From the NCBI GenBank assembly GCA_041674765.1, contig JBAYVE010000003.1, forward strand, positions 2,040 through 66,039: a DNA stretch of 64,000 bases, given 5' to 3'. The notes beneath the pieces were generated by a model. It did not search any database. It was not told where the DNA came from and saw only the letters and a program-made list of their open reading frames with translations. Shown here one piece after another: positions 46,810 through 52,993 of this stretch. Both the position numbers and the translations under genes were made by a program. Within the stretch, counting starts at the first letter, position 1; the number at the start of each line of letters is the position of its first letter. This stretch comes from Patescibacteria group bacterium (lineage in GTDB: Bacteria > Patescibacteriota > UBA1384 > XYA2-FULL-43-10 > 1-14-0-10-43-13).

Positions 46810-49800
46810 ATGGCAAAAGAATATGATTTTAAGACAATCGAAAGAAAGTGGCAAGATTATTGGGATAAAATTAGTTACGGCAAGTCCGAGGATTTTTCTG
46901 ATAAGCCCAAGAGCTATCAGCTAGTTGAATTCCCCTACCCTTCAGGCTATGGTCTCCATGTCGGTCATTGCATGGGTTATGGCGCTTCGGATATATATTC
47001 CAGAATGCTTCGGATGCAGGGATTCAACGTGATGTATCCGATGGGTTGGGACGCTTTTGGCTTGCCTACGGAGAATTTTGCAATCAAAACCAAGCAGAAA
47101 CCTCAGATAATTACCGAGCAGGCCGTTAAGACTTTTAAAACGCAGATGAAATCTCTTGGTTATTCATTTGATTGGGACAGAGAAATCAATACGACTGATC
47201 CTGACTATTATAAATGGACTCAATGGGTATTTTTGCAATTTTATAAACACTCATACCAAAATGGTAGATTAGTACCCGTCGCTGACGATGACAGGACAAC
47301 ACCCAGACTTGCTTTCCAGGCAGAAATGCCGGTCAATTGGTGTCCTTCTTGTAAAATTGTTTTAGCAAACGAGGAAGTCGTTGCCGGCGCTTGTGAGAGA
47401 TGCAAAACCGAGGTGTCTAAGAAATCTCAGAAGCAGTGGATGCTTCGAATTACCGCCTATGCCGATAGATTGATCAAGGATTTGGATACTGTTGATTATT
47501 TGGACAAAATTAAGACTCAGCAGATCAATTGGATTGGTAGAAGTGAAGGCACGGAAATAGAATTCAAGATTCAAAAAAATAAGGAATTCAATTCCGAAAT
47601 TACATACACCCCACCTAGCCTCCCCTCTAAAAGGGGAGGAAATGAGTTCGAGGATGACACTATTTTATTCAATGGCAAGAAGAAGGTTATCAAGGTTTTT
47701 ACGACTCGAGCAGATACACTTTTTGGTTGTACTTATGTTGTTTTATCGCCAGAATGCACTTTGTTGCAGGAACTGAAACCTCAAATAACAAATTGGGATG
47801 AGATCGTCGCCTATGTTGAAAATGCTGCAAAGAAATCTGACTTAGAACGGATGGAATTGGAAAAAGATAAAACCGGTGTAGAATTGGCTGGAATTAAGGC
47901 AGTAAATCCAATTAATGGCGAAGAAGTACCTGTTTTTGTGGCGGATTATGTCTTAGCGAGCTATGGAACGGGTGCTGTGATGGCTGTGCCGGCTCATGAT
48001 GACCGGGATTTTGAATTTGCTAAGAAGTATCATTTACCAATAAAGCAAGTCGTAATTCCGGTTTTTGGTGAAAAACATGAAAATGAAGAAACAAGAAATA
48101 CAATTACTGCTGTTGTTAAGAGGAAAAGTGATGGTAAATTTTTGTTAATATCTTGGAAAGGTTTCGGTTGGTATTCAACTGTGGTTGGTGGTATCGAGCT
48201 GGACGAAACACCAGAAGAAGCCGCTGAGCGGGAGGTTTTAGAGGAAACTGGTTACAAAGTCAATGCGATCGAAAAGATTGGTGGAATTACTGAAGCTCAT
48301 TTCTATCATGATGGCAAAAAAATCTGGCGAAAGCGTTTTGACCAACCAGTCTTTTGCGAACTGATTGATGAGAAACTTATTCAGAAGGCAGAAATTGATA
48401 AGCATGCCCCTCTTTGGCTTGACGGGAAAGAGGCATTAGAGAAAATAACTCATTATGATAATAAGATTGGACTGGCCAGATACTTGAACGGTAATTATTC
48501 AAACACAGACTATGGTATTCTAATAAATTCCGATGGTTACGATGGTTTAAGCTCAGCAGATGCCAAGAGAAAAATCACCGAAAAGCTGAAAGAAATTGGC
48601 GCTGGCGATTTTACTATCAATTTCAAGTTGCGTGACTGGATTTTCTCCCGCCAGCATTATTGGGGTGAACCGATTCCGATCGTTCACTGTGATCCGCAAG
48701 CTGGCGGATGCGGAGTTGTGCCTTTGGGTGAGAAGGATTTACCGTTGACCCTACCGGATGTTGAAAACTATGAGCCGACAGAAACCGGCGAATCCCCTCT
48801 TGCAAAGATTACTGATTGGGTCGAAACAACCTGTCCGAAATGTGGCGGGAAAGCTATGCGCGAGACAGATACAATGCCAAACTGGGCTGGCTCATCTTGG
48901 TACTTCATCGCTTATGCTCTAAATCAAAACTTAAAACTCAAAAGTCAAAAAGAAGGAAATCTATTTGATGATAATAGCAAAGAAGTCGATTATTGGATGC
49001 CGGTAGACTTATATAATGGCGGAATGGAACATACAACCCTTCATCTGCTATATTCCCGTTTCTGGCATAAATTTCTGTACGATTTGGGGAAAGTGCCCGG
49101 AGCAGAGCCTTATTCTAAGCGTATTGCTCACGGCATAATTTTGGGACCCGATGGCAGGAAGATGAGCAAATCTTTTGGCAATGTGATCAATCCAGATGAT
49201 ATCGTTAAACAATTTGGTGCGGATACTTTGAGAGCTTATATTGCTTTTATTGGTCCGTACGATCAGGAATCGGCCTGGAGTACCGCTGGTGTTCAGGGAG
49301 TATTTCGCTGGCTGAAACGGCTTTGGAATAATATTGATAAAGTTGACGACTTCAAAGATGAAGATCAGCTGCTAGTTAAGCTAAATCAAACTATCGTCGG
49401 CGTGACCGATGATATCAGAGAGTTTCGTCTAAATACAGTAATTTCCAAGCTGATGGAGATGAATAATATGATCGAAAAAACAGGTAAAATTTCTCGTGAT
49501 TTATACAATAAATATTTGAGGTTGCTTTACCCGGCCGTGCCTCACATCGCCTCAGAATTGTGGGAGATAGCTCAATTTGAGGGAAAAATTGAAGAACAAG
49601 AATGGCCAGAGGCAGATACTAAATATTTGATCTCGGAAACTATTGAAATCGTTGTTCAAATCAATGGTAAGGTGCGGGATAAATTAACCGTTTCTTCAGA
49701 AATTACCGAAGAGGAAATGAAAAAAGAAGCATTGAATTTGGAAAAAGTTCAACAGTTTGTGCAAGGCAAAGAGATTGTAAAAACAATAGTAGTGCCAAAG

Positions 49801-49827
49801 AAGCTTGTTAGTATCGTAATCAAATAG
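46810..49827 (+). CDS. leuS: leucyl-tRNA synthetase with two insertions (about 30 aa near residue 265; about 150-aa Nudix-box domain after the editing domain)
   Basis: HIGH as HVGHCMGY, KMSKS present, TTRADTLFG editing domain, AVPAHDDRDFEFAKKY, FKLRDWIFSRQHYWGEPIP. 1005 aa against roughly 860 aa typical. Confidence 0.95.
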   Translation: MAKEYDFKTIERKWQDYWDKISYGKSEDFSDKPKSYQLVEFPYPSGYGLHVGHCMGYGASDIYSRMLRMQGFNVMYPMGWDAFGLPTENFAIKTKQKPQIITEQAVKTFKTQMKSLGYSFDWDREINTTDPDYYKWTQWVFLQFYKHSYQNGRLVPVADDDRTTPRLAFQAEMPVNWCPSCKIVLANEEVVAGACERCKTEVSKKSQKQWMLRITAYADRLIKDLDTVDYLDKIKTQQINWIGRSEGTEIEFKIQKNKEFNSEITYTPPSLPSKRGGNEFEDDTILFNGKKKVIKVFTTRADTLFGCTYVVLSPECTLLQELKPQITNWDEIVAYVENAAKKSDLERMELEKDKTGVELAGIKAVNPINGEEVPVFVADYVLASYGTGAVMAVPAHDDRDFEFAKKYHLPIKQVVIPVFGEKHENEETRNTITAVVKRKSDGKFLLISWKGFGWYSTVVGGIELDETPEEAAEREVLEETGYKVNAIEKIGGITEAHFYHDGKKIWRKRFDQPVFCELIDEKLIQKAEIDKHAPLWLDGKEALEKITHYDNKIGLARYLNGNYSNTDYGILINSDGYDGLSSADAKRKITEKLKEIGAGDFTINFKLRDWIFSRQHYWGEPIPIVHCDPQAGGCGVVPLGEKDLPLTLPDVENYEPTETGESPLAKITDWVETTCPKCGGKAMRETDTMPNWAGSSWYFIAYALNQNLKLKSQKEGNLFDDNSKEVDYWMPVDLYNGGMEHTTLHLLYSRFWHKFLYDLGKVPGAEPYSKRIAHGIILGPDGRKMSKSFGNVINPDDIVKQFGADTLRAYIAFIGPYDQESAWSTAGVQGVFRWLKRLWNNIDKVDDFKDEDQLLVKLNQTIVGVTDDIREFRLNTVISKLMEMNNMIEKTGKISRDLYNKYLRLLYPAVPHIASELWEIAQFEGKIEEQEWPEADTKYLISETIEIVVQINGKVRDKLTVSSEITEEEMKKEALNLEKVQQFVQGKEIVKTIVVPKKLVSIVIK
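47619..47639 (+). repeat. perfect GC-rich hairpin CCTCCCCT-ctaaa-AGGGGAGG inside leuS coding sequence (encodes PPSLPSKRGGNE within an insertion)
   Basis: Read directly. Sits in an approximately 30-codon stretch with no counterpart in the E. coli LeuRS alignment as recalled. Confidence 0.5.
48060..48460 (+). other. Nudix-hydrolase-like domain inserted in LeuRS between the CP1/editing domain and the catalytic core
   Basis: Perfect Nudix box GGIELDETPEEAAEREVLEETGY (Gx5Ex7REUxEExGU). Flanked by KYHLPIKQVV (end of editing domain) and GILINSDGYDGL (resumption of canonical LeuRS). Confidence 0.7.
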
Positions 49828-50303: not shown

Positions 50304-50723
50304 ATGAACCGGCATCTTTCAAGAATGATTGCAATGCAAACTCTCTATGAATGGCAATTTCGTGATGGCTCTGATCTGTCGGAGATTGAAGAGAGAAATT
50401 CGGGCGAGTATGAGGAGAAATGTGAGCGTGAGTTTATTCACGAGGTTGTCAGTGGTGTGTCGAAGGATCTACCCGAGCTTATAAAGATTCTTGATGAATC
50501 AGCGCCCGAGTGGCCAGTCGATCAAATTTCCCTTATCGACAAAACGATCCTGTATATTTCTATCTACGAGCTTTTAAAATTGAAGGATGTGCCGCCAAAG
50601 GTCTCAATCAACGAAGCGGTTGAACTATCAAAGCAATTTGGAGGCGAGAATTCGTCCAAGTTTGTAAACGGAGTCCTTGGGACTGTCTTTAAAAAGTATG
50701 AGAAGGAGATTGAAAATAAATGA
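50304..50723 (+). CDS. nusB: transcription antitermination factor NusB
   Basis: [14 protein letters not shown]-terminal signature. About 139 aa. Confidence 0.8.
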
Positions 50724-51442
50724 ATAATGAATGGAAAACTCAGGATCTATCTGAGTTTGAAAAAATAATTGGGGTACAATTTAAGGATAAATCACTTCTA
50801 GAGACAGTATTTATTCACAGATCGTATCTCAACGAACACAAGTCCTTGGGACTTGAGCAGAATGAAAGACTCGAATTTTTGGGCGATGCAGTTTTAGAGC
50901 TTGCAGCGACTAGATTTCTGTATGAAAATTATGACCGTCCGGAAGGTGAATTGACGAACTGGAGAAGCGCACTTGTCAAAGGCGAATCTCTCTCCGAAGA
51001 AGCTAAGAGGATCGGAATGGATCCCTATATTAAAACTTCTCGTGGTGAGTCGAAAAATATCGGTAAAGCCAGAGATATTATACTCGCGAATGCTTTCGAA
51101 GCTCTGATCGGAGCTATCTATCTTGACCGAGGAATGGATATCGCGTCAGAATTTGTCCTTAAGAATATATGTTATAAGCTGGAAGATATTTTAGAAGCTG
51201 GCGCTTATCAAGATGCTAAAAGCAAATTCCAGGAGAATTCTCAGGAACAATTCGGTATTACACCGACATATCAGGTTCTAAAAGAAGAAGGTCCTGATCA
51301 CTCAAAAATATTTACTGTTGGCGCATATCTAAATCAAAAAAAGGTTAGTGAAGGCTCAGGTCCTTCAAAACAAAGAGCTCAGATTGATGCCGCAGCGAAT
51401 GCAATTGATCATTGGGGCGAGATCGAAGACCAGATAAGATAG
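50720..51442 (+). CDS. rnc: ribonuclease III
   Basis: [20 protein letters not shown] RNase III signature. C-terminal dsRBD. Confidence 0.9.
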
Positions 51443-51555
51443 TCTGATGGTCTGATGGTCTATTGGTCCAAGAGTCAGACGGTCATATAGTGGGAAAGTC
51501 TAATAGTCTTGATGAGAAAAATAGTTTTGACATCAATATAGATTGAGGTGATAAA
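51443..51555. repeat. low-complexity degenerate repeat block (GTCTGATGGTC-type units) upstream of the four-helix-bundle gene
   Basis: AGTCTGATGGTCTGATGGTCTATTGGTCC...GTCAGACGGTCATATAGTG...AGTCTAATAGTCT. Shares the 12-mer GTCTAATAGTCT (51498-51509) with the downstream flank (51970-51981). Confidence 0.5.
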
Positions 51556-51912
51556 TTGACCATAAGTAATTTCGAAGAACTTAAGGTTTGGCAAGAATCT
51601 ATTGATTTAGCATCATTTTGTTATAGAACGCTTAAAGATTGCAGAGATTATAGTTTCAAGGATCAGCTTTGTCGTGCAGTTGTGTCTATCTCGAATAACA
51701 TAGCTGAAGGTTTTGCAAGACAAGGAGATAAAGAATTTAAGCAATTCCTTTATATTGCAAAAGGATCATGCGCCGAAGTGAGGTCTATGTCTTTCCTGGC
51801 AAAAGACTTAGGGTATATATCAGTAGAGCAATATGACATTATCCAAGAGAAAACTTTATTAATAACTAAAATGCTCTCAAAGCTGATTACTTACCTAAGA
51901 AATTCCAAATAA
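51556..51912 (+). CDS. four-helix-bundle protein of the 23S rRNA intervening-sequence protein family (PF05635-like)
   Basis: TTG start with GAGGTGA RBS. FEELKVWQESIDLASFCYRTLKDCRDYSFKDQLCRAVVSISNNIAEGFARQGDKEFKQFLYIAKGSCAEVRS matches the family pattern (VWQ...QL.RA..SI..NIAEG..R....E..RF...A.GS..E). Confidence 0.75.
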   Translation: MTISNFEELKVWQESIDLASFCYRTLKDCRDYSFKDQLCRAVVSISNNIAEGFARQGDKEFKQFLYIAKGSCAEVRSMSFLAKDLGYISVEQYDIIQEKTLLITKMLSKLITYLRNSK

Positions 51913-52033
51913 CTCAACTCGCAATAACCTGTCCAACAGTCCAGTGGTCAATTTGTCTACAGTCCATTGGTCTAATAGTCTAACTGACTAACAGACCATG
52001 CGACTGTCCTGACTATCAGACTATCCGACTATT
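51913..52033. repeat. second degenerate repeat block of GTC/ATGGTC-type units downstream of the four-helix-bundle gene, with imperfect palindromes
   Basis: CAGTCCAGTGGTCAATTTGTCTACAGTCCATTGGTCTAATAGTCTAACTGACTAACAGACCATGCGACTGTCCTGACTATCAGACTATCCGACTAT. Confidence 0.5.
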
Positions 52034-52993
52034 TTATCTTGGCCAAATTATATTCTGCCAACCCCAATCAAGCAGCTTTCTGGACTCCTCGGCAGAGGCC
52101 GAAGGAGTGTCGGCATTTGTCTTTAATACTATCGAAATAAGAGTATGGCCATTTCTGGTGGCCGCACCGACTAGACAGTGACCGGCCTCGGGCATATAGC
52201 CAGTTTTGACGCCAATTGCGCCAGAATAATCCCACTCATTTACCAACCGATTTGAATTGTTGAGTTCATGCCAGATTTTGCCCGTAATATCCCTAACTGA
52301 GGTTTGCTTTATTTGAACTATTTCAGCGAAAATGGGCTTTTTTAGCGCATATTTTGTAATCAGATAAAGGTCGAAGGCCGATGAGTATCCGGTTACATCT
52401 AGTCCTGCCGGATCATGATATTCCGTGTCATTCATCCCAAGCTCTTTGGCCTTGGCGTTCATTTTTGAATTAAACTTTGCGATACCGGTTTCGCCAGGCT
52501 TATTCATATATTCAGCCAAAGCAATAGCCGCCCCGTTTGCAGATTTTATCAGCAGACATTTGAGTAAATCTCCTACAGTCATCTGTTCGCCTATAACAAG
52601 ATTTGCGCTAGCACCGATAGTGCTGGCTGCTTCTTTTGAAATAGTAACAACTTCATCTAAGTCGTAATTTTCTAGTACCACAACAGCCGTCATAATCTTG
52701 GTTGTAGAAGCGATTGGCACTCTCTGTTTTGCGGCTTTATTGGCAATAATCGTGCCTGATTCAGAATCTACCAGGATATAATTCTGTGCATAAATCAGAG
52801 GCTTCGCTGCAAATTCCTTGGTTTTCGGCGGTTCTTTGATCTCTGGCAGAGGTAAATTGATTGCTTCCGCCAATGCACTCTCTTGAGAACTGGCTGACTT
52901 TTGAATAATATCCCGGTCTATATTCAAAGAAGCCCCCGAAAATCCGAAGGTATTAAATATAATTGAAAAAATGATTAGTAACTTTTCGGTCAT
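52034..52993 (-). CDS. D-alanyl-D-alanine carboxypeptidase (serine-type, PBP5/6-like, S11)
   Basis: SxxK motif ASTTKIMT. Signal peptide. 319 aa. Confidence 0.8.
   Translation of the reverse strand: MTEKLLIIFSIIFNTFGFSGASLNIDRDIIQKSASSQESALAEAINLPLPEIKEPPKTKEFAAKPLIYAQNYILVDSESGTIIANKAAKQRVPIASTTKIMTAVVVLENYDLDEVVTISKEAASTIGASANLVIGEQMTVGDLLKCLLIKSANGAAIALAEYMNKPGETGIAKFNSKMNAKAKELGMNDTEYHDPAGLDVTGYSSAFDLYLITKYALKKPIFAEIVQIKQTSVRDITGKIWHELNNSNRLVNEWDYSGAIGVKTGYMPEAGHCLVGAATRNGHTLISIVLKTNADTPSASAEESRKLLDWGWQNIIWPR

What the first reader, a model, noticed from the sequence alone, without database searches (positions are those of the whole stretch)
51443..52033. Four-helix-bundle 23S-IVS-family gene with TTG start, embedded in degenerate GTC/ATGGTC repeat blocks with a 12-bp direct repeat, immediately downstream of RNase III
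PF05635-like proteins are classically encoded inside 23S rRNA intervening sequences whose flanking inverted repeats are excised by RNase III. Here the gene sits right after rnc. It is flanked on both sides by unusual low-complexity repeat blocks (AGTCTGATGGTCTGATGGTCTATTGGTCC... and ...GTCCATTGGTCTAATAGTCTAACTGACTAACAGACCATG...) that contain imperfect palindromes. Both flanks share the exact 12-mer GTCTAATAGTCT, 472 bp apart. This looks like a small selfish cassette, or an RNase III-processed structured transcript, inserted between rnc and the dac gene.
Basis: partly seen in the sequence, partly recalled or inferred. Interest (0 to 1): 0.55.

Follow-up and report, generated by a model that had tools for sequence, protein, structure and literature searches.

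The report
IVS-type gene reading its own repeats
A small four-helix-bundle gene of the kind known from ribosomal-RNA intervening sequences sits here between two housekeeping genes, flanked by arrays of 8-base repeats that its own protein appears to read base by base; the same rule holds in over 100 relatives and gives this long-orphan protein family a testable function.

Summary
ORF 51556-51912 (TTG start, 118 aa) is a PF05635 four-helix-bundle protein. It is flanked by 8-nt periodic RGTC units: 9 upstream, then 7 forward and 6 inverted downstream. The outer arms are predicted to form a 30-bp closing helix.

This is not a local oddity. About 160 homologous loci from many phyla, including a true 23S rRNA IVS (Azospirillum), carry 7-9-nt repeat arrays. 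They are usually purine-rich upstream and complementary downstream. ORF-less hairpins made of the same units also occur.

The key result is a covariation. Protein residue 58, the N-cap of helix 3, is Asp wherever the units read GTC (42/42) and Asn wherever they read GTT (63/63). It is the only strong residue-base pair among 6324 tested. It replicated in an independent metagenome set and is not explained by GC content or by a single clade. The window has D58 with GTC. The cassette at the same site in a relative has N with GTT.

The protein therefore most likely binds its own flanking repeats. By homology with DGR Avd, the target is probably an RNA helix with periodic mismatches. RNase III processing is inferred only. 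Adjacency to rnc is lineage-specific (0/80 other loci).

The parts
50720..51442 (+). rnc (RNase III), upstream co-directional neighbour. Context only; its last 3 codons and stop lie in the 5' arm of the closing helix.
   Evidence: Pfam PF14622/PF00636/PF00035; helix coordinates
51430..51460 (+). 5' arm of the predicted long-range closing helix
   Evidence: MFE of 51425-52045: 30 bp, 51430-51460 paired with 52011-52042, 3 G-U pairs; inverted repeat I1
51438..51509 (+). Upstream forward array F1: 9 units of 8 nt, NNNRGTCN (one unit is GTG)
   Evidence: Register print and GTC positions; TRF period 8; 0 expected by chance
51545..51551 (+). Shine-Dalgarno-like GAGGTGA, 4 nt before the TTG start. 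No sigma-70-like promoter lies between the array and the ORF.
   Evidence: Sequence; promoter scan
51556..51912 (+). PF05635/TIGR02436 four-helix-bundle protein gene (118 aa, TTG start)
   Evidence: AlphaFold pLDDT 95.9, helices 10-25, 32-54, 58-84, 90-116; TM 0.85 to 2gsc, 0.79 to bAvd 4dwl
51727..51729 (+). Codon GAT = Asp58, the specificity-linked residue (N-cap of helix 3). Asp goes with GTC units and Asn with GTT units across the family.
51931..51981 (+). Downstream forward array F2: 7 GTC units (period 8, one -1 slip). It holds the second copy of the 12-mer.
   Evidence: (D2)
51986..52033 (+). Downstream inverted array R: 6 GAC units, the reverse complement of the forward units
   Evidence: D3, I1-I4
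51959..52007 (+). Local F2:R hairpin (19 bp), equivalent to the ORF-less 'solo' hairpins seen in other genomes
   Evidence: solos in L036, L067, L072, L075
52011..52042 (+). 3' arm of the closing helix. It overlaps the stop and last codons of dac on the other strand.
52034..52993 (-). dac (S11 D-Ala-D-Ala carboxypeptidase), convergent neighbour; context only
   Evidence: Pfam PF00768

Best explanation
This is a free-standing IVS-type cassette. It is a promoterless PF05635 four-helix-bundle gene lodged in the rnc-dac spacer and transcribed by read-through from nusB-rnc. It is flanked by arrays of short periodic repeats that are the cognate binding sites of its own protein. The forward units (RGTC, 8-nt period) upstream and the inverted units downstream pair into a long helix. 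That helix consists of roughly 6-7-bp cores interrupted by a recurrent mismatch in each unit. The protein is presumably a basic homopentamer like XCC0516 and Avd. It reads the units one after another through the helix2-helix3 end of the bundle, and residue 58 specifies the base after GT (Asp for C, Asn for T/U). By homology with Avd, the target is most likely RNA. The closing helix is then also an RNase III substrate, as in rRNA IVSs, so the cassette RNA would be cut out of the operon transcript. Protein binding could modulate that cleavage and/or its own translation. Shown computationally: family membership, the arrays, the predicted helix, and the residue-base covariation. Inferred: the pentamer, RNA rather than DNA as the ligand, RNase III cleavage, and any autoregulation.
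For: Family and fold. Arrays in the window. Closing helix: 30 bp, fold z -4.6; flank duplex -81 kcal/mol, z -7.8. Family-wide arrays: AAAGT is 14.5x enriched upstream and ACTTT 12.8x downstream; unit spacings are 7, 8 or 9 nt (384 of 386). Whole-cassette MFE has at least 15 upstream:downstream pairs in 72/84 loci (median 36), against 44/84 with a foreign 3' flank and 32/84 with a shuffled one. The same architecture occurs in distant members and in a true 23S rRNA IVS (L099, LSU rRNA 2529 bits), and Coxiella's IVS has heptamer repeats (PMC4990558). Covariation: GTC goes with D58 in 42/42 and GTT with N58 in 63/63 among 132 unique proteins, p=1e-26, with the next-best pair at 7e-8. In the first set alone it was the only pair of 4368 to pass Bonferroni. 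It replicated in an independent metagenome set: 22 D/C, 32 N/T, no D/T or N/C. At least 14 D<->N switches are needed on the protein tree. GC content does not differ between the D and N groups (p=0.20). Both arms obey the rule separately. The window (D, GTC) and the same-site cassette L007 (N, GTT) differ as predicted. Per-unit complementarity is 0.83-0.90 in the core and drops to 0.54 at +3, next to the specificity base. Precedent: the Avd pentamer binds an RNA stem-loop with all five protomers, and flipped-out bases sit in crevices between protomers (bioRxiv 10.1101/2023.10.23.563531). The proteins are basic: median pI 9.1, net charge +4. Read-through expression: the upstream neighbour is co-directional in 71/80 loci, the median stop-to-start distance is 58 nt, and there is no promoter hit.
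Against: There is no excess of G-U-compatible over A-C mismatches on the sense strand (131 vs 143), so RNA-level selection is not demonstrated. Among loci with the same core type, own-arm complementarity is only modestly better than cross-locus (38 vs 30, p=0.009; not significant for the GTC type). Some loci have unequal spacing in the two arms. A few have arrays in direct rather than inverted orientation (L017, L048, L071, L182, L186). This shows the motif array matters more than a perfect stem, and it fits a DNA-binding reading equally well. Array length is broad (mode 3-5 units, up to 18) with no peak at five. Asp and Asn are also generic helix N-cap residues. No experiment bears on binding, on cleavage, or on the oligomeric state of this protein.
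Confidence: 0.6

Rival explanations
1. The protein still recognises the repeats, but at the DNA level. The arrays are inward-pointing multi-site binding arrays on double-stranded DNA or on extruded or single-stranded hairpins. The protein would then act as a transcriptional autoregulator, or as the element-encoded factor that synapses or marks the ends for recombination or mobility. This would resemble subterminal repeats of transposons, or REP sequences around RAYT genes.
For: On duplex DNA both arrays are the same motif in inverted orientation, which by itself explains why both arms follow the D/N rule. There is no G-U bias. Fixed inward polarity holds even for ORF-less hairpins (5/5 solos run forward then reverse). 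L067's solo shares 29 nt with the cassette's 3' arm, which suggests copying within a genome. The cassette is present or absent among relatives. The ORF is AT-richer than its neighbours in 78/78 loci.
Against: No transposase, integrase or target-site duplication is associated with the cassette. A variable 7-9-bp spacing is awkward for phasing on B-DNA. The only homologue with a known ligand (Avd) binds RNA. The rRNA-embedded members are demonstrably RNA elements cut by RNase III (PMC4990558). Many cassettes sit at conserved positions across genera, so mobility is slow.
Confidence: 0.25
2. The element is a passive selfish hairpin. The flanking repeats only provide an RNase III-cleavable stem that makes the insertion harmless. 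The protein would then have an unrelated function or none.
For: The closing helix is predicted in 86% of loci. For Coxiella, the authors argue that the RNA matters more than S23p, which seems untranslated there (PMC4990558). ORF-less hairpins exist.
Against: It cannot explain the 105/105 match between residue 58 and the repeat base, replicated in a second dataset. It does not explain the conserved purine-rich-upstream polarity, or the strong conservation of the ORF: 68% identity between the two same-site cassettes, while the Rnc C-terminal segments flanking them are 57% identical.
Confidence: 0.06
3. The cassette is functionally coupled to the adjacent rnc gene, for example as an RNase III regulator or a dedicated substrate placed in the rnc operon.
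For: It lies immediately 3' of rnc here and in L007, and the closing helix includes rnc's last codons.
Against: None of 80 other family loci has an rnc homologue within 2.5 kb. Five relatives with 70-76% identical Rnc have no cassette at this site.
Confidence: 0.04
4. The gene is an Avd accessory gene of a diversity-generating retroelement, or a remnant of one.
For: The fold resembles bAvd (TM 0.79), and DGRs are common in CPR bacteria (established knowledge).
Against: No reverse transcriptase lies in the 20 kb around the gene. Sequence identity to Avd is only 11-15%. The gene belongs to the free-standing TIGR02436 group.
Confidence: 0.02

Closest known systems
ORF-containing 23S rRNA intervening sequences (Coxiella burnetii, Leptospira; here also Azospirillum lipoferum L099)
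   Same: The protein family is the same (S23p/PF05635). The ORF is enclosed by complementary termini. Short tandem repeats of 7-8 nt lie in the 5' arm just upstream of the ORF: GACAGAT x3 in Coxiella (PMC4990558) and GGACAGA-like in L099.
   Different: The window cassette is not in an rRNA gene; it lies in an mRNA intergenic spacer between rnc and dac. RNase III excision has been shown for rRNA IVSs but not here. In the papers I could search, the repeats had been noted only as a strain-variable oddity in Coxiella, not as a family-wide protein-linked feature.
DGR accessory protein Avd bound to its RNA (PDB 4dwl, 8ub7)
   Same: Both have the four-helix-bundle fold. Avd is a basic pentamer. All five protomers contact an RNA stem-loop, and the same residues from different protomers read flipped-out bases. 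Here a helix with a periodic mismatch in each unit is predicted.
   Different: Identity is only 11-15%. There is no reverse transcriptase partner. The ligand here is a long periodic array on both sides of the gene rather than one 11-bp stem-loop. No structure or binding data exist for the free-standing proteins.
Ring-shaped RNA-binding oligomers that read periodic repeats, such as TRAP (11 G/UAG triplets with 2-3-nt spacers)
   Same: The logic would be one repeat unit per subunit, with tolerated variation in spacer length (7-9 nt here). This comparison rests on established knowledge and is an analogy only.
   Different: The folds are unrelated. TRAP regulates other genes in response to tryptophan, whereas here the sites flank the protein's own gene and come as complementary pairs.
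REPtrons (RAYT transposase genes flanked by inverted REP sequences, with dispersed REP/BIME copies)
   Same: A small gene is flanked by inverted copies of a short structured repeat. ORF-less copies of the same repeat occur elsewhere in the genome.
   Different: The protein is not an HUH/Y1 transposase and has no recognisable catalytic motif. The repeats are tandem arrays of 7-9-nt units rather than single palindromes. No solo copy was found in this 64-kb window.
Type III toxin-antitoxin systems (ToxIN)
   Same: A protein gene is preceded by a tandem array of short repeats whose RNA is bound by the oligomeric protein.
   Different: ToxI repeats are 36 nt long, direct only, and processed by the toxin itself. 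There is no evidence of toxicity or nuclease activity here, and PADLOC gave no hit.

Membership tests
PF05635 / TIGR02436 four-helix-bundle ('23S rRNA IVS protein', S23p) family | Profile score above the curated cut-off | tested here: met
   PF05635 116.3 bits vs 33.8; TIGR02436 110.9 bits vs 24
PF05635 / TIGR02436 four-helix-bundle ('23S rRNA IVS protein', S23p) family | Conserved helix-2 motif R-x3-S-x3-N-x2-E (part of GxxRxxxSxxxNxxE, quoted in PMC3936711) | tested here: met
   R40, S44, N48 and E51 are present. S44, N48 and E51 are invariant and R40 is at least 90% conserved in the 42-sequence alignment.
PF05635 / TIGR02436 four-helix-bundle ('23S rRNA IVS protein', S23p) family | Up-down four-helix bundle like XCC0516 / BT_0352 | tested here: met
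   pLDDT 95.9 with four helices; TM 0.85 to 2gsc and 0.79 to 2rld; phmmer E 4e-14 to 2gsc
PF05635 / TIGR02436 four-helix-bundle ('23S rRNA IVS protein', S23p) family | Homopentameric toroid | not testable with these tools
   Only a monomer was predicted. 2gsc and 2rld each have 5 chains.
Classical 23S rRNA intervening sequence (IVS) | Inserted in a 23S rRNA gene (helix 25 or 45) | tested here: not met
   There is no rRNA in the window (Rfam). The cassette lies between rnc and dac.
Classical 23S rRNA intervening sequence (IVS) | Complementary termini forming a stem that encloses the element | tested here: met
   30-bp closing helix 51430-51460: 52011-52042; inverted repeat of 29 nt at 86%
Classical 23S rRNA intervening sequence (IVS) | Excision from the precursor by RNase III | not testable with these tools
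   This needs RNA end mapping with and without rnc. It has been shown for Coxiella (PMC4990558).
Diversity-generating retroelement (Avd component) | Adjacent reverse transcriptase gene | tested here: not met
   No RVT-family gene is among the called genes within 10 kb on either side.
Diversity-generating retroelement (Avd component) | Template/variable repeat pair differing at adenines | not tested
   Only the 900-nt region around the gene was scanned for repeats, and none of that kind was seen there.
DNA transposon / MITE | Element-encoded or genomic transposase acting on the terminal inverted repeats | tested here: not met
   The only ORF is PF05635, and no transposase is in the 20-kb neighbourhood.
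DNA transposon / MITE | Target-site duplication flanking the inverted repeats | tested here: not met
   The 12-mer direct repeat lies inside arrays F1 and F2, not outside the arms. No flanking duplication appears.
DNA transposon / MITE | Multiple dispersed copies in the genome | tested here: inconclusive
   There is no second array or second PF05635 gene in the 64-kb window. ORF-less hairpins of the same units occur in other genomes' loci.

The most novel reading that the evidence does not exclude
PF05635 proteins are oligomeric, sequence-programmable readers of short periodic repeats. One residue at the start of helix 3 sets one base of the site (Asp for C, Asn for T/U, possibly Arg for G-rich units). 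Together with their arrays and the ORF-less hairpin derivatives, they would form a widespread class of self-recognising genetic elements with autonomous and non-autonomous forms. The classical rRNA intervening sequences would be just the special case that landed in rRNA.
Probability: 0.3. Interest if true: 0.85.

Novelty: new variant of a known kind. Interest (0 to 1): 0.72.

Why it matters
The S23p/IVS protein family has had no known function since the early 1990s, yet it is large: 30,445 50%-identity cluster representatives match the profile. It is scattered through housekeeping operons, cas loci and rRNA genes of many phyla. The data show that every branch sampled carries cognate repeat arrays, and that one residue predicts one base of the repeat. 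The question 'what does this protein do?' therefore becomes a simple, falsifiable binding experiment. The result links free-standing genes, rRNA IVSs and DGR Avd proteins under one idea: a pentameric bundle gripping a structured, periodic nucleic acid. It accounts for the unexplained heptamer repeats in the Coxiella IVS. It also offers a mundane explanation for the reported 'CRISPR association' of this family, since cassettes with their own short repeat arrays insert between cas genes. Finally, it hints at a compact protein scaffold with a readable specificity code. I found no description of any of this in the searchable literature, but that library is incomplete.

Tried and rejected
1. Rfam: nothing at gathering threshold in the window, only noise at E<=10 on the cassette, and nothing but tRNAs in 40 related loci.
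2. A dedicated sigma-70 promoter for the ORF: none found upstream.
3. A functional link to rnc: rejected, since 0/80 other loci have rnc nearby.
4. The 12-mer as a target-site duplication: rejected, because it is two consecutive units shared by arrays F1 and F2.
5. A G-U vs A-C mismatch asymmetry test, meant to prove sense-RNA pairing: no bias (131 vs 143).
6. Mirror-order of unit spacings between the arms: uninformative (0.79 vs 0.77 shuffled).
7. 'Five units per array' as a pentamer signature: not seen; the distribution is broad.
8. GC content as a confound of the Asp/Asn-C/T rule: rejected (p=0.20).
9. A single-clade artefact: rejected (at least 14 switches), although the tree of a 115-aa protein is noisy.
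10. DGR membership: no RT nearby.
11. Anti-phage defence libraries: no PADLOC hit.
12. Viral contigs: only 3 distant hits, without clear arrays.
13. A clean empty site in relatives: not obtained. Relatives carry a different small membrane/coiled-coil ORF in the rnc-dac spacer, so I could not distinguish insertion from replacement or loss.
14. Second-tier residue-base associations (E54 with A at -2/-3; residues 14, 102, 108-113 with -1/-2; p 1e-5 to 1e-7). They cluster at the same end of the bundle but may reflect sub-clades, so I treat them as leads only.
Full report
**What is in the window**

The contig is from a Patescibacteria (CPR) metagenome-assembled genome. The local gene order is rpmF-nusB-rnc on the plus strand, then the ORF in question, then a convergent dac-rluB-...-aspS block.

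ORF 51556-51912 starts with TTG, 4 nt after a GAGGTGA Shine-Dalgarno sequence. It encodes 118 aa that score 116 bits on PF05635 and 111 bits on TIGR02436. Its N-terminus coincides with the family consensus, which supports the TTG start. AlphaFold gives a confident up-down four-helix bundle (pLDDT 95.9; helices 10-25, 32-54, 58-84, 90-116). The best structural matches are the pentameric XCC0516 (2gsc, TM 0.85), BT_0352 (2rld) and the DGR protein Avd (4dwl/8ub7, TM about 0.75-0.79).

**The repeats in the window**

- Upstream array F1 (51438-51509): nine 8-nt units, NNNRGTCN.
- Downstream forward array F2 (51931-51981): seven forward units.
- Downstream inverted array R (51986-52033): six inverted units (GAC).

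Four GTC at 8-nt spacing occur nowhere else in 64 kb and in none of 100 shuffles. The exact 12-mer at 51498 and 51970 is two consecutive units shared by F1 and F2. It is not an insertion scar.

The minimum-free-energy fold of 51425-52045 (-174 kcal/mol, z -4.6) contains three elements:
- a 30-bp closing helix, 51430-51460 : 52011-52042, which reaches into the last codons of rnc and dac;
- a local 19-bp F2:R hairpin;
- a 14-bp pairing of the SD/start region with F2.

No promoter-like site precedes the ORF. No Rfam family matches.

**The repeats are a property of the family**

I fetched 80 loci encoding relatives (45-57% identity) from species-representative genomes. They cover CPR lineages, Bacteroidota, Desulfocapsa, Ignavibacteria, Leptospiraceae and Nitrospirae. 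Nearly all show an upstream array of units such as ATAAAGTTC or AAAGTCT and a downstream array of the reverse complement.

The numbers:
- AAAGT is 14.5-fold enriched in the 100 nt upstream, and ACTTT 12.8-fold downstream.
- Successive cores are 7, 8 or 9 nt apart in 384 of 386 cases.
- Chains of at least 3 units occur in 58/80 loci, against 15/299 control windows.
- The flanks of a locus pair better with each other than with shuffled flanks (z<-2 in 57/79) or with another locus's flanks (63/79).
- Folding whole cassettes gives at least 15 upstream:downstream base pairs in 72 of 84 loci (median 36). The figures are 44/84 with a foreign 3' flank and 32/84 with a shuffled one.

More distant members (30-43% identity) on cyanobacterial, Riemerella and Gemmatirosa replicons have the same layout with other units: GGGAAAA, GGGAACA, TAGGGAG, ACAGGTGA, AAGGTTYA.

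One hit, Azospirillum lipoferum AZO_p2, lies inside a 23S rRNA gene (Rfam LSU 2529 bits). It is flanked by GGACAGA-like units upstream and their complement downstream. The Coxiella IVS paper describes GACAGAT heptamers just upstream of its S23p ORF (PMC4990558). Free-standing genes and classical IVSs therefore share one architecture.

**Context of the cassettes**
- None of 40 loci scanned is in rRNA.
- The upstream neighbour is co-directional in 71/80 loci, with a median of 58 nt between its stop and the ORF start. These are promoterless, operon-embedded genes.
- The ORF is AT-richer than its neighbours in 78/78 loci (0.326 vs 0.418), but its GC tracks host GC.
- ORF-less hairpins made of a forward array followed directly by an inverted array occur in the same genomes (L036 twice, L067, L072, L075). 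All have the same polarity. One shares 29 nt with the resident cassette's 3' arm. The window's F2:R hairpin is of this kind.
- Several genomes carry tandem paralogues, each with its own loop sequence and its own array type.

**The site in relatives**

Five relatives have 64-68% identical Dac, and four of them have 70-76% identical Rnc. They keep the convergent rnc/dac arrangement but have no PF05635 gene and no arrays. A small membrane/coiled-coil ORF on the dac strand fills the spacer instead.

One short contig (L007) has a cassette at exactly this site. Its protein is the closest homologue of the window's protein among 5.8 billion sequences (68% identity). However, the Rnc and Dac fragments on that contig are not closer to the window than those of the cassette-free relatives. 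The cassette is therefore an accessory unit at this locus. I cannot say whether it was gained, lost or exchanged.

**The decisive result: residue 58 covaries with one repeat base**

I anchored units on their GT core and took the majority base at each unit position. I then tested every protein alignment column against every unit position.

In the genome set only one pair passes Bonferroni correction among 4368 tests: residue 58 (window numbering) against the base after GT. GTC goes with Asp in 21/21 loci and GTT with Asn in 33/33 (p=3e-14; next best 2e-4).

An independent set of 80 loci from JGI metagenomes reproduced it: 22 Asp/C, 32 Asn/T, one Asp/A, and no Asp/T or Asn/C. Pooled over 132 unique proteins the counts are 42/42 and 63/63 (p=1e-26).

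Checks on the association:
- At least 14 Asp<->Asn switches are needed on a neighbour-joining tree built without that column.
- GC content does not differ between the two groups.
- Each arm obeys the rule on its own.
- The more distant Riemerella protein (Asn, GGTT) also fits.
- The window has Asp58 (GAT, 51727-51729) with GTC/GAC units. L007, at the same site, has Asn with GTT/AAC units.

Residue 58 is the first residue of helix 3, directly after the conserved R55 and before K59-E60-F61. Weaker associations involve residues 4, 14, 54, 102 and 108-113, most of which lie at the same end of the bundle. I treat these as leads only.

Cyanobacterial and Gemmatirosa members with G-rich units have Arg, Lys or Thr at this position. 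This is anecdotal.

**What kind of nucleic acid is read?**

Across 92 loci, complementarity between the arms is 0.83-0.90 at unit positions -2 to +1 and 0.78 at the specificity base +2. It falls to 0.54 at +3. The predicted helix is thus a string of short cores separated by a recurrent mismatch next to the base that residue 58 tracks.

This resembles the only homologue with a known ligand. In the DGR ribonucleoprotein all five Avd protomers contact an RNA stem-loop, and the same residues from different protomers hold flipped-out bases in crevices between protomers. The family is mildly basic (median pI 9.1).

These points favour RNA. The RNA case is not proven, for three reasons:
- Mismatches show no G-U bias on the sense strand (131 vs 143).
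- Locus-specific complementarity beyond the core is modest.
- A few loci have arrays in direct orientation.

A DNA-level reading, with inward-pointing binding arrays as at transposon ends or around RAYT genes, explains the two-arm covariation equally well. I give it about one chance in four.

**Mechanism I commit to**

The cassette is transcribed as part of the nusB-rnc message. Its arrays pair and close the ORF in a long, periodically mismatched helix. The encoded oligomer binds that structure unit by unit, with residue 58 setting the C/U preference. As in rRNA IVSs, the helix is a substrate for RNase III, which would release the cassette RNA from the host transcript. Binding could tune cleavage or translation; here the start codon is predicted to be sequestered.

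Supported by computation: family membership, the arrays, the predicted helix, and protein-repeat co-evolution. Inferred: pentamer formation, RNA as the ligand, RNase III cleavage, and any regulatory outcome.

**Comparison with what is known, and novelty**

It works like an rRNA IVS and like Avd on its stem-loop. It is a member of PF05635/TIGR02436. It is not a 23S rRNA IVS by location, not a DGR component (no RT within 10 kb), and not a recognisable transposon.

Earlier reports placed this family inside cas loci (PMC3936711; PMC10910872). I saw the cassette, with its own arrays, between cas6 and cas4 in Anabaena and Pseudanabaena. This fits passive insertion into operons.

I found no paper that describes the flanking arrays of free-standing genes or the residue-base rule. 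The library is incomplete, so the novelty claim is provisional.

I rate the finding a new variant of a known kind. It has high interest because it makes the function of a large orphan family directly testable.

Noticed in passing
window 46810-49827 (+): The leucyl-tRNA synthetase (1005 aa) carries a NUDIX hydrolase domain (PF00293) inserted between the editing domain and the rest of the enzyme. The same architecture is listed for the LeuRS of relatives L089-L091.
   Followed up: no
L088 3598-3873, L089 3558-3839, L091 1429-1842 (rnc-dac spacer of relatives): Relatives without the cassette carry a small ORF (91-137 aa, no Pfam hit) in the same spacer. It has an N-terminal hydrophobic segment and a coiled-coil-like sequence, and it lies on the dac strand. 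A terminator-like hairpin follows rnc.
   Followed up: partly
L098 (Anabaena sp. 90 pANA02) and L182 (Pseudanabaena galeata pPg_01): A PF05635 cassette sits between cas6 and cas4 of a type I-D locus, with its own short repeat arrays: ACAGGTGA/TCACCTGT in Anabaena and AAAAGCT/AAAAGCC in Pseudanabaena. In the latter the arrays are in direct orientation. This may explain the published 'CRISPR association' of 23S_rRNA_IVP as passive insertion.
   Followed up: partly
window 51550-51563 and 51944-51957: The end of the SD and the TTG start (GATAAATTGACCA) are complementary to part of array F2 (TGGTCAATTTGTC) and are paired in the MFE structure. This could sequester the start codon. I did not check it in other loci.
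   Followed up: no
78 related loci; window 51556-51912: The PF05635 ORF has lower GC than its flanking genes in 78/78 loci (mean 0.326 vs 0.418; window 0.336 vs 0.398 for rnc and 0.425 for dac). Its GC still correlates with host GC (rho 0.75).
   Followed up: partly
L036 1-110 and 1265-1380; L067 1220-1360; L072 1835-1955; L075 585-730: ORF-less hairpins made of a forward array followed by an inverted array lie in intergenic spacers just before start codons. In two CPR genomes the hairpin lies upstream of a full cassette that directly precedes a gene starting MERDYPLEKV..., which looks like EF-G (fusA).
   Followed up: partly
L009, L035, L041, L056, L058: Two or three PF05635 paralogues lie within 5 kb, each with a different helix2-helix3 loop and a different array type. 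L035's first copy has reversed polarity: pyrimidine-rich units upstream and purine-rich units downstream.
   Followed up: partly
L026, L029, L038 (Bacteroidales, same upstream gene): Cassettes at an orthologous position differ strongly in copy number: up to about 14 downstream units in L026. Upstream units alternate 9- and 7-nt spacing while downstream units are all 9 nt. The two arms therefore expand independently, like microsatellites.
   Followed up: no
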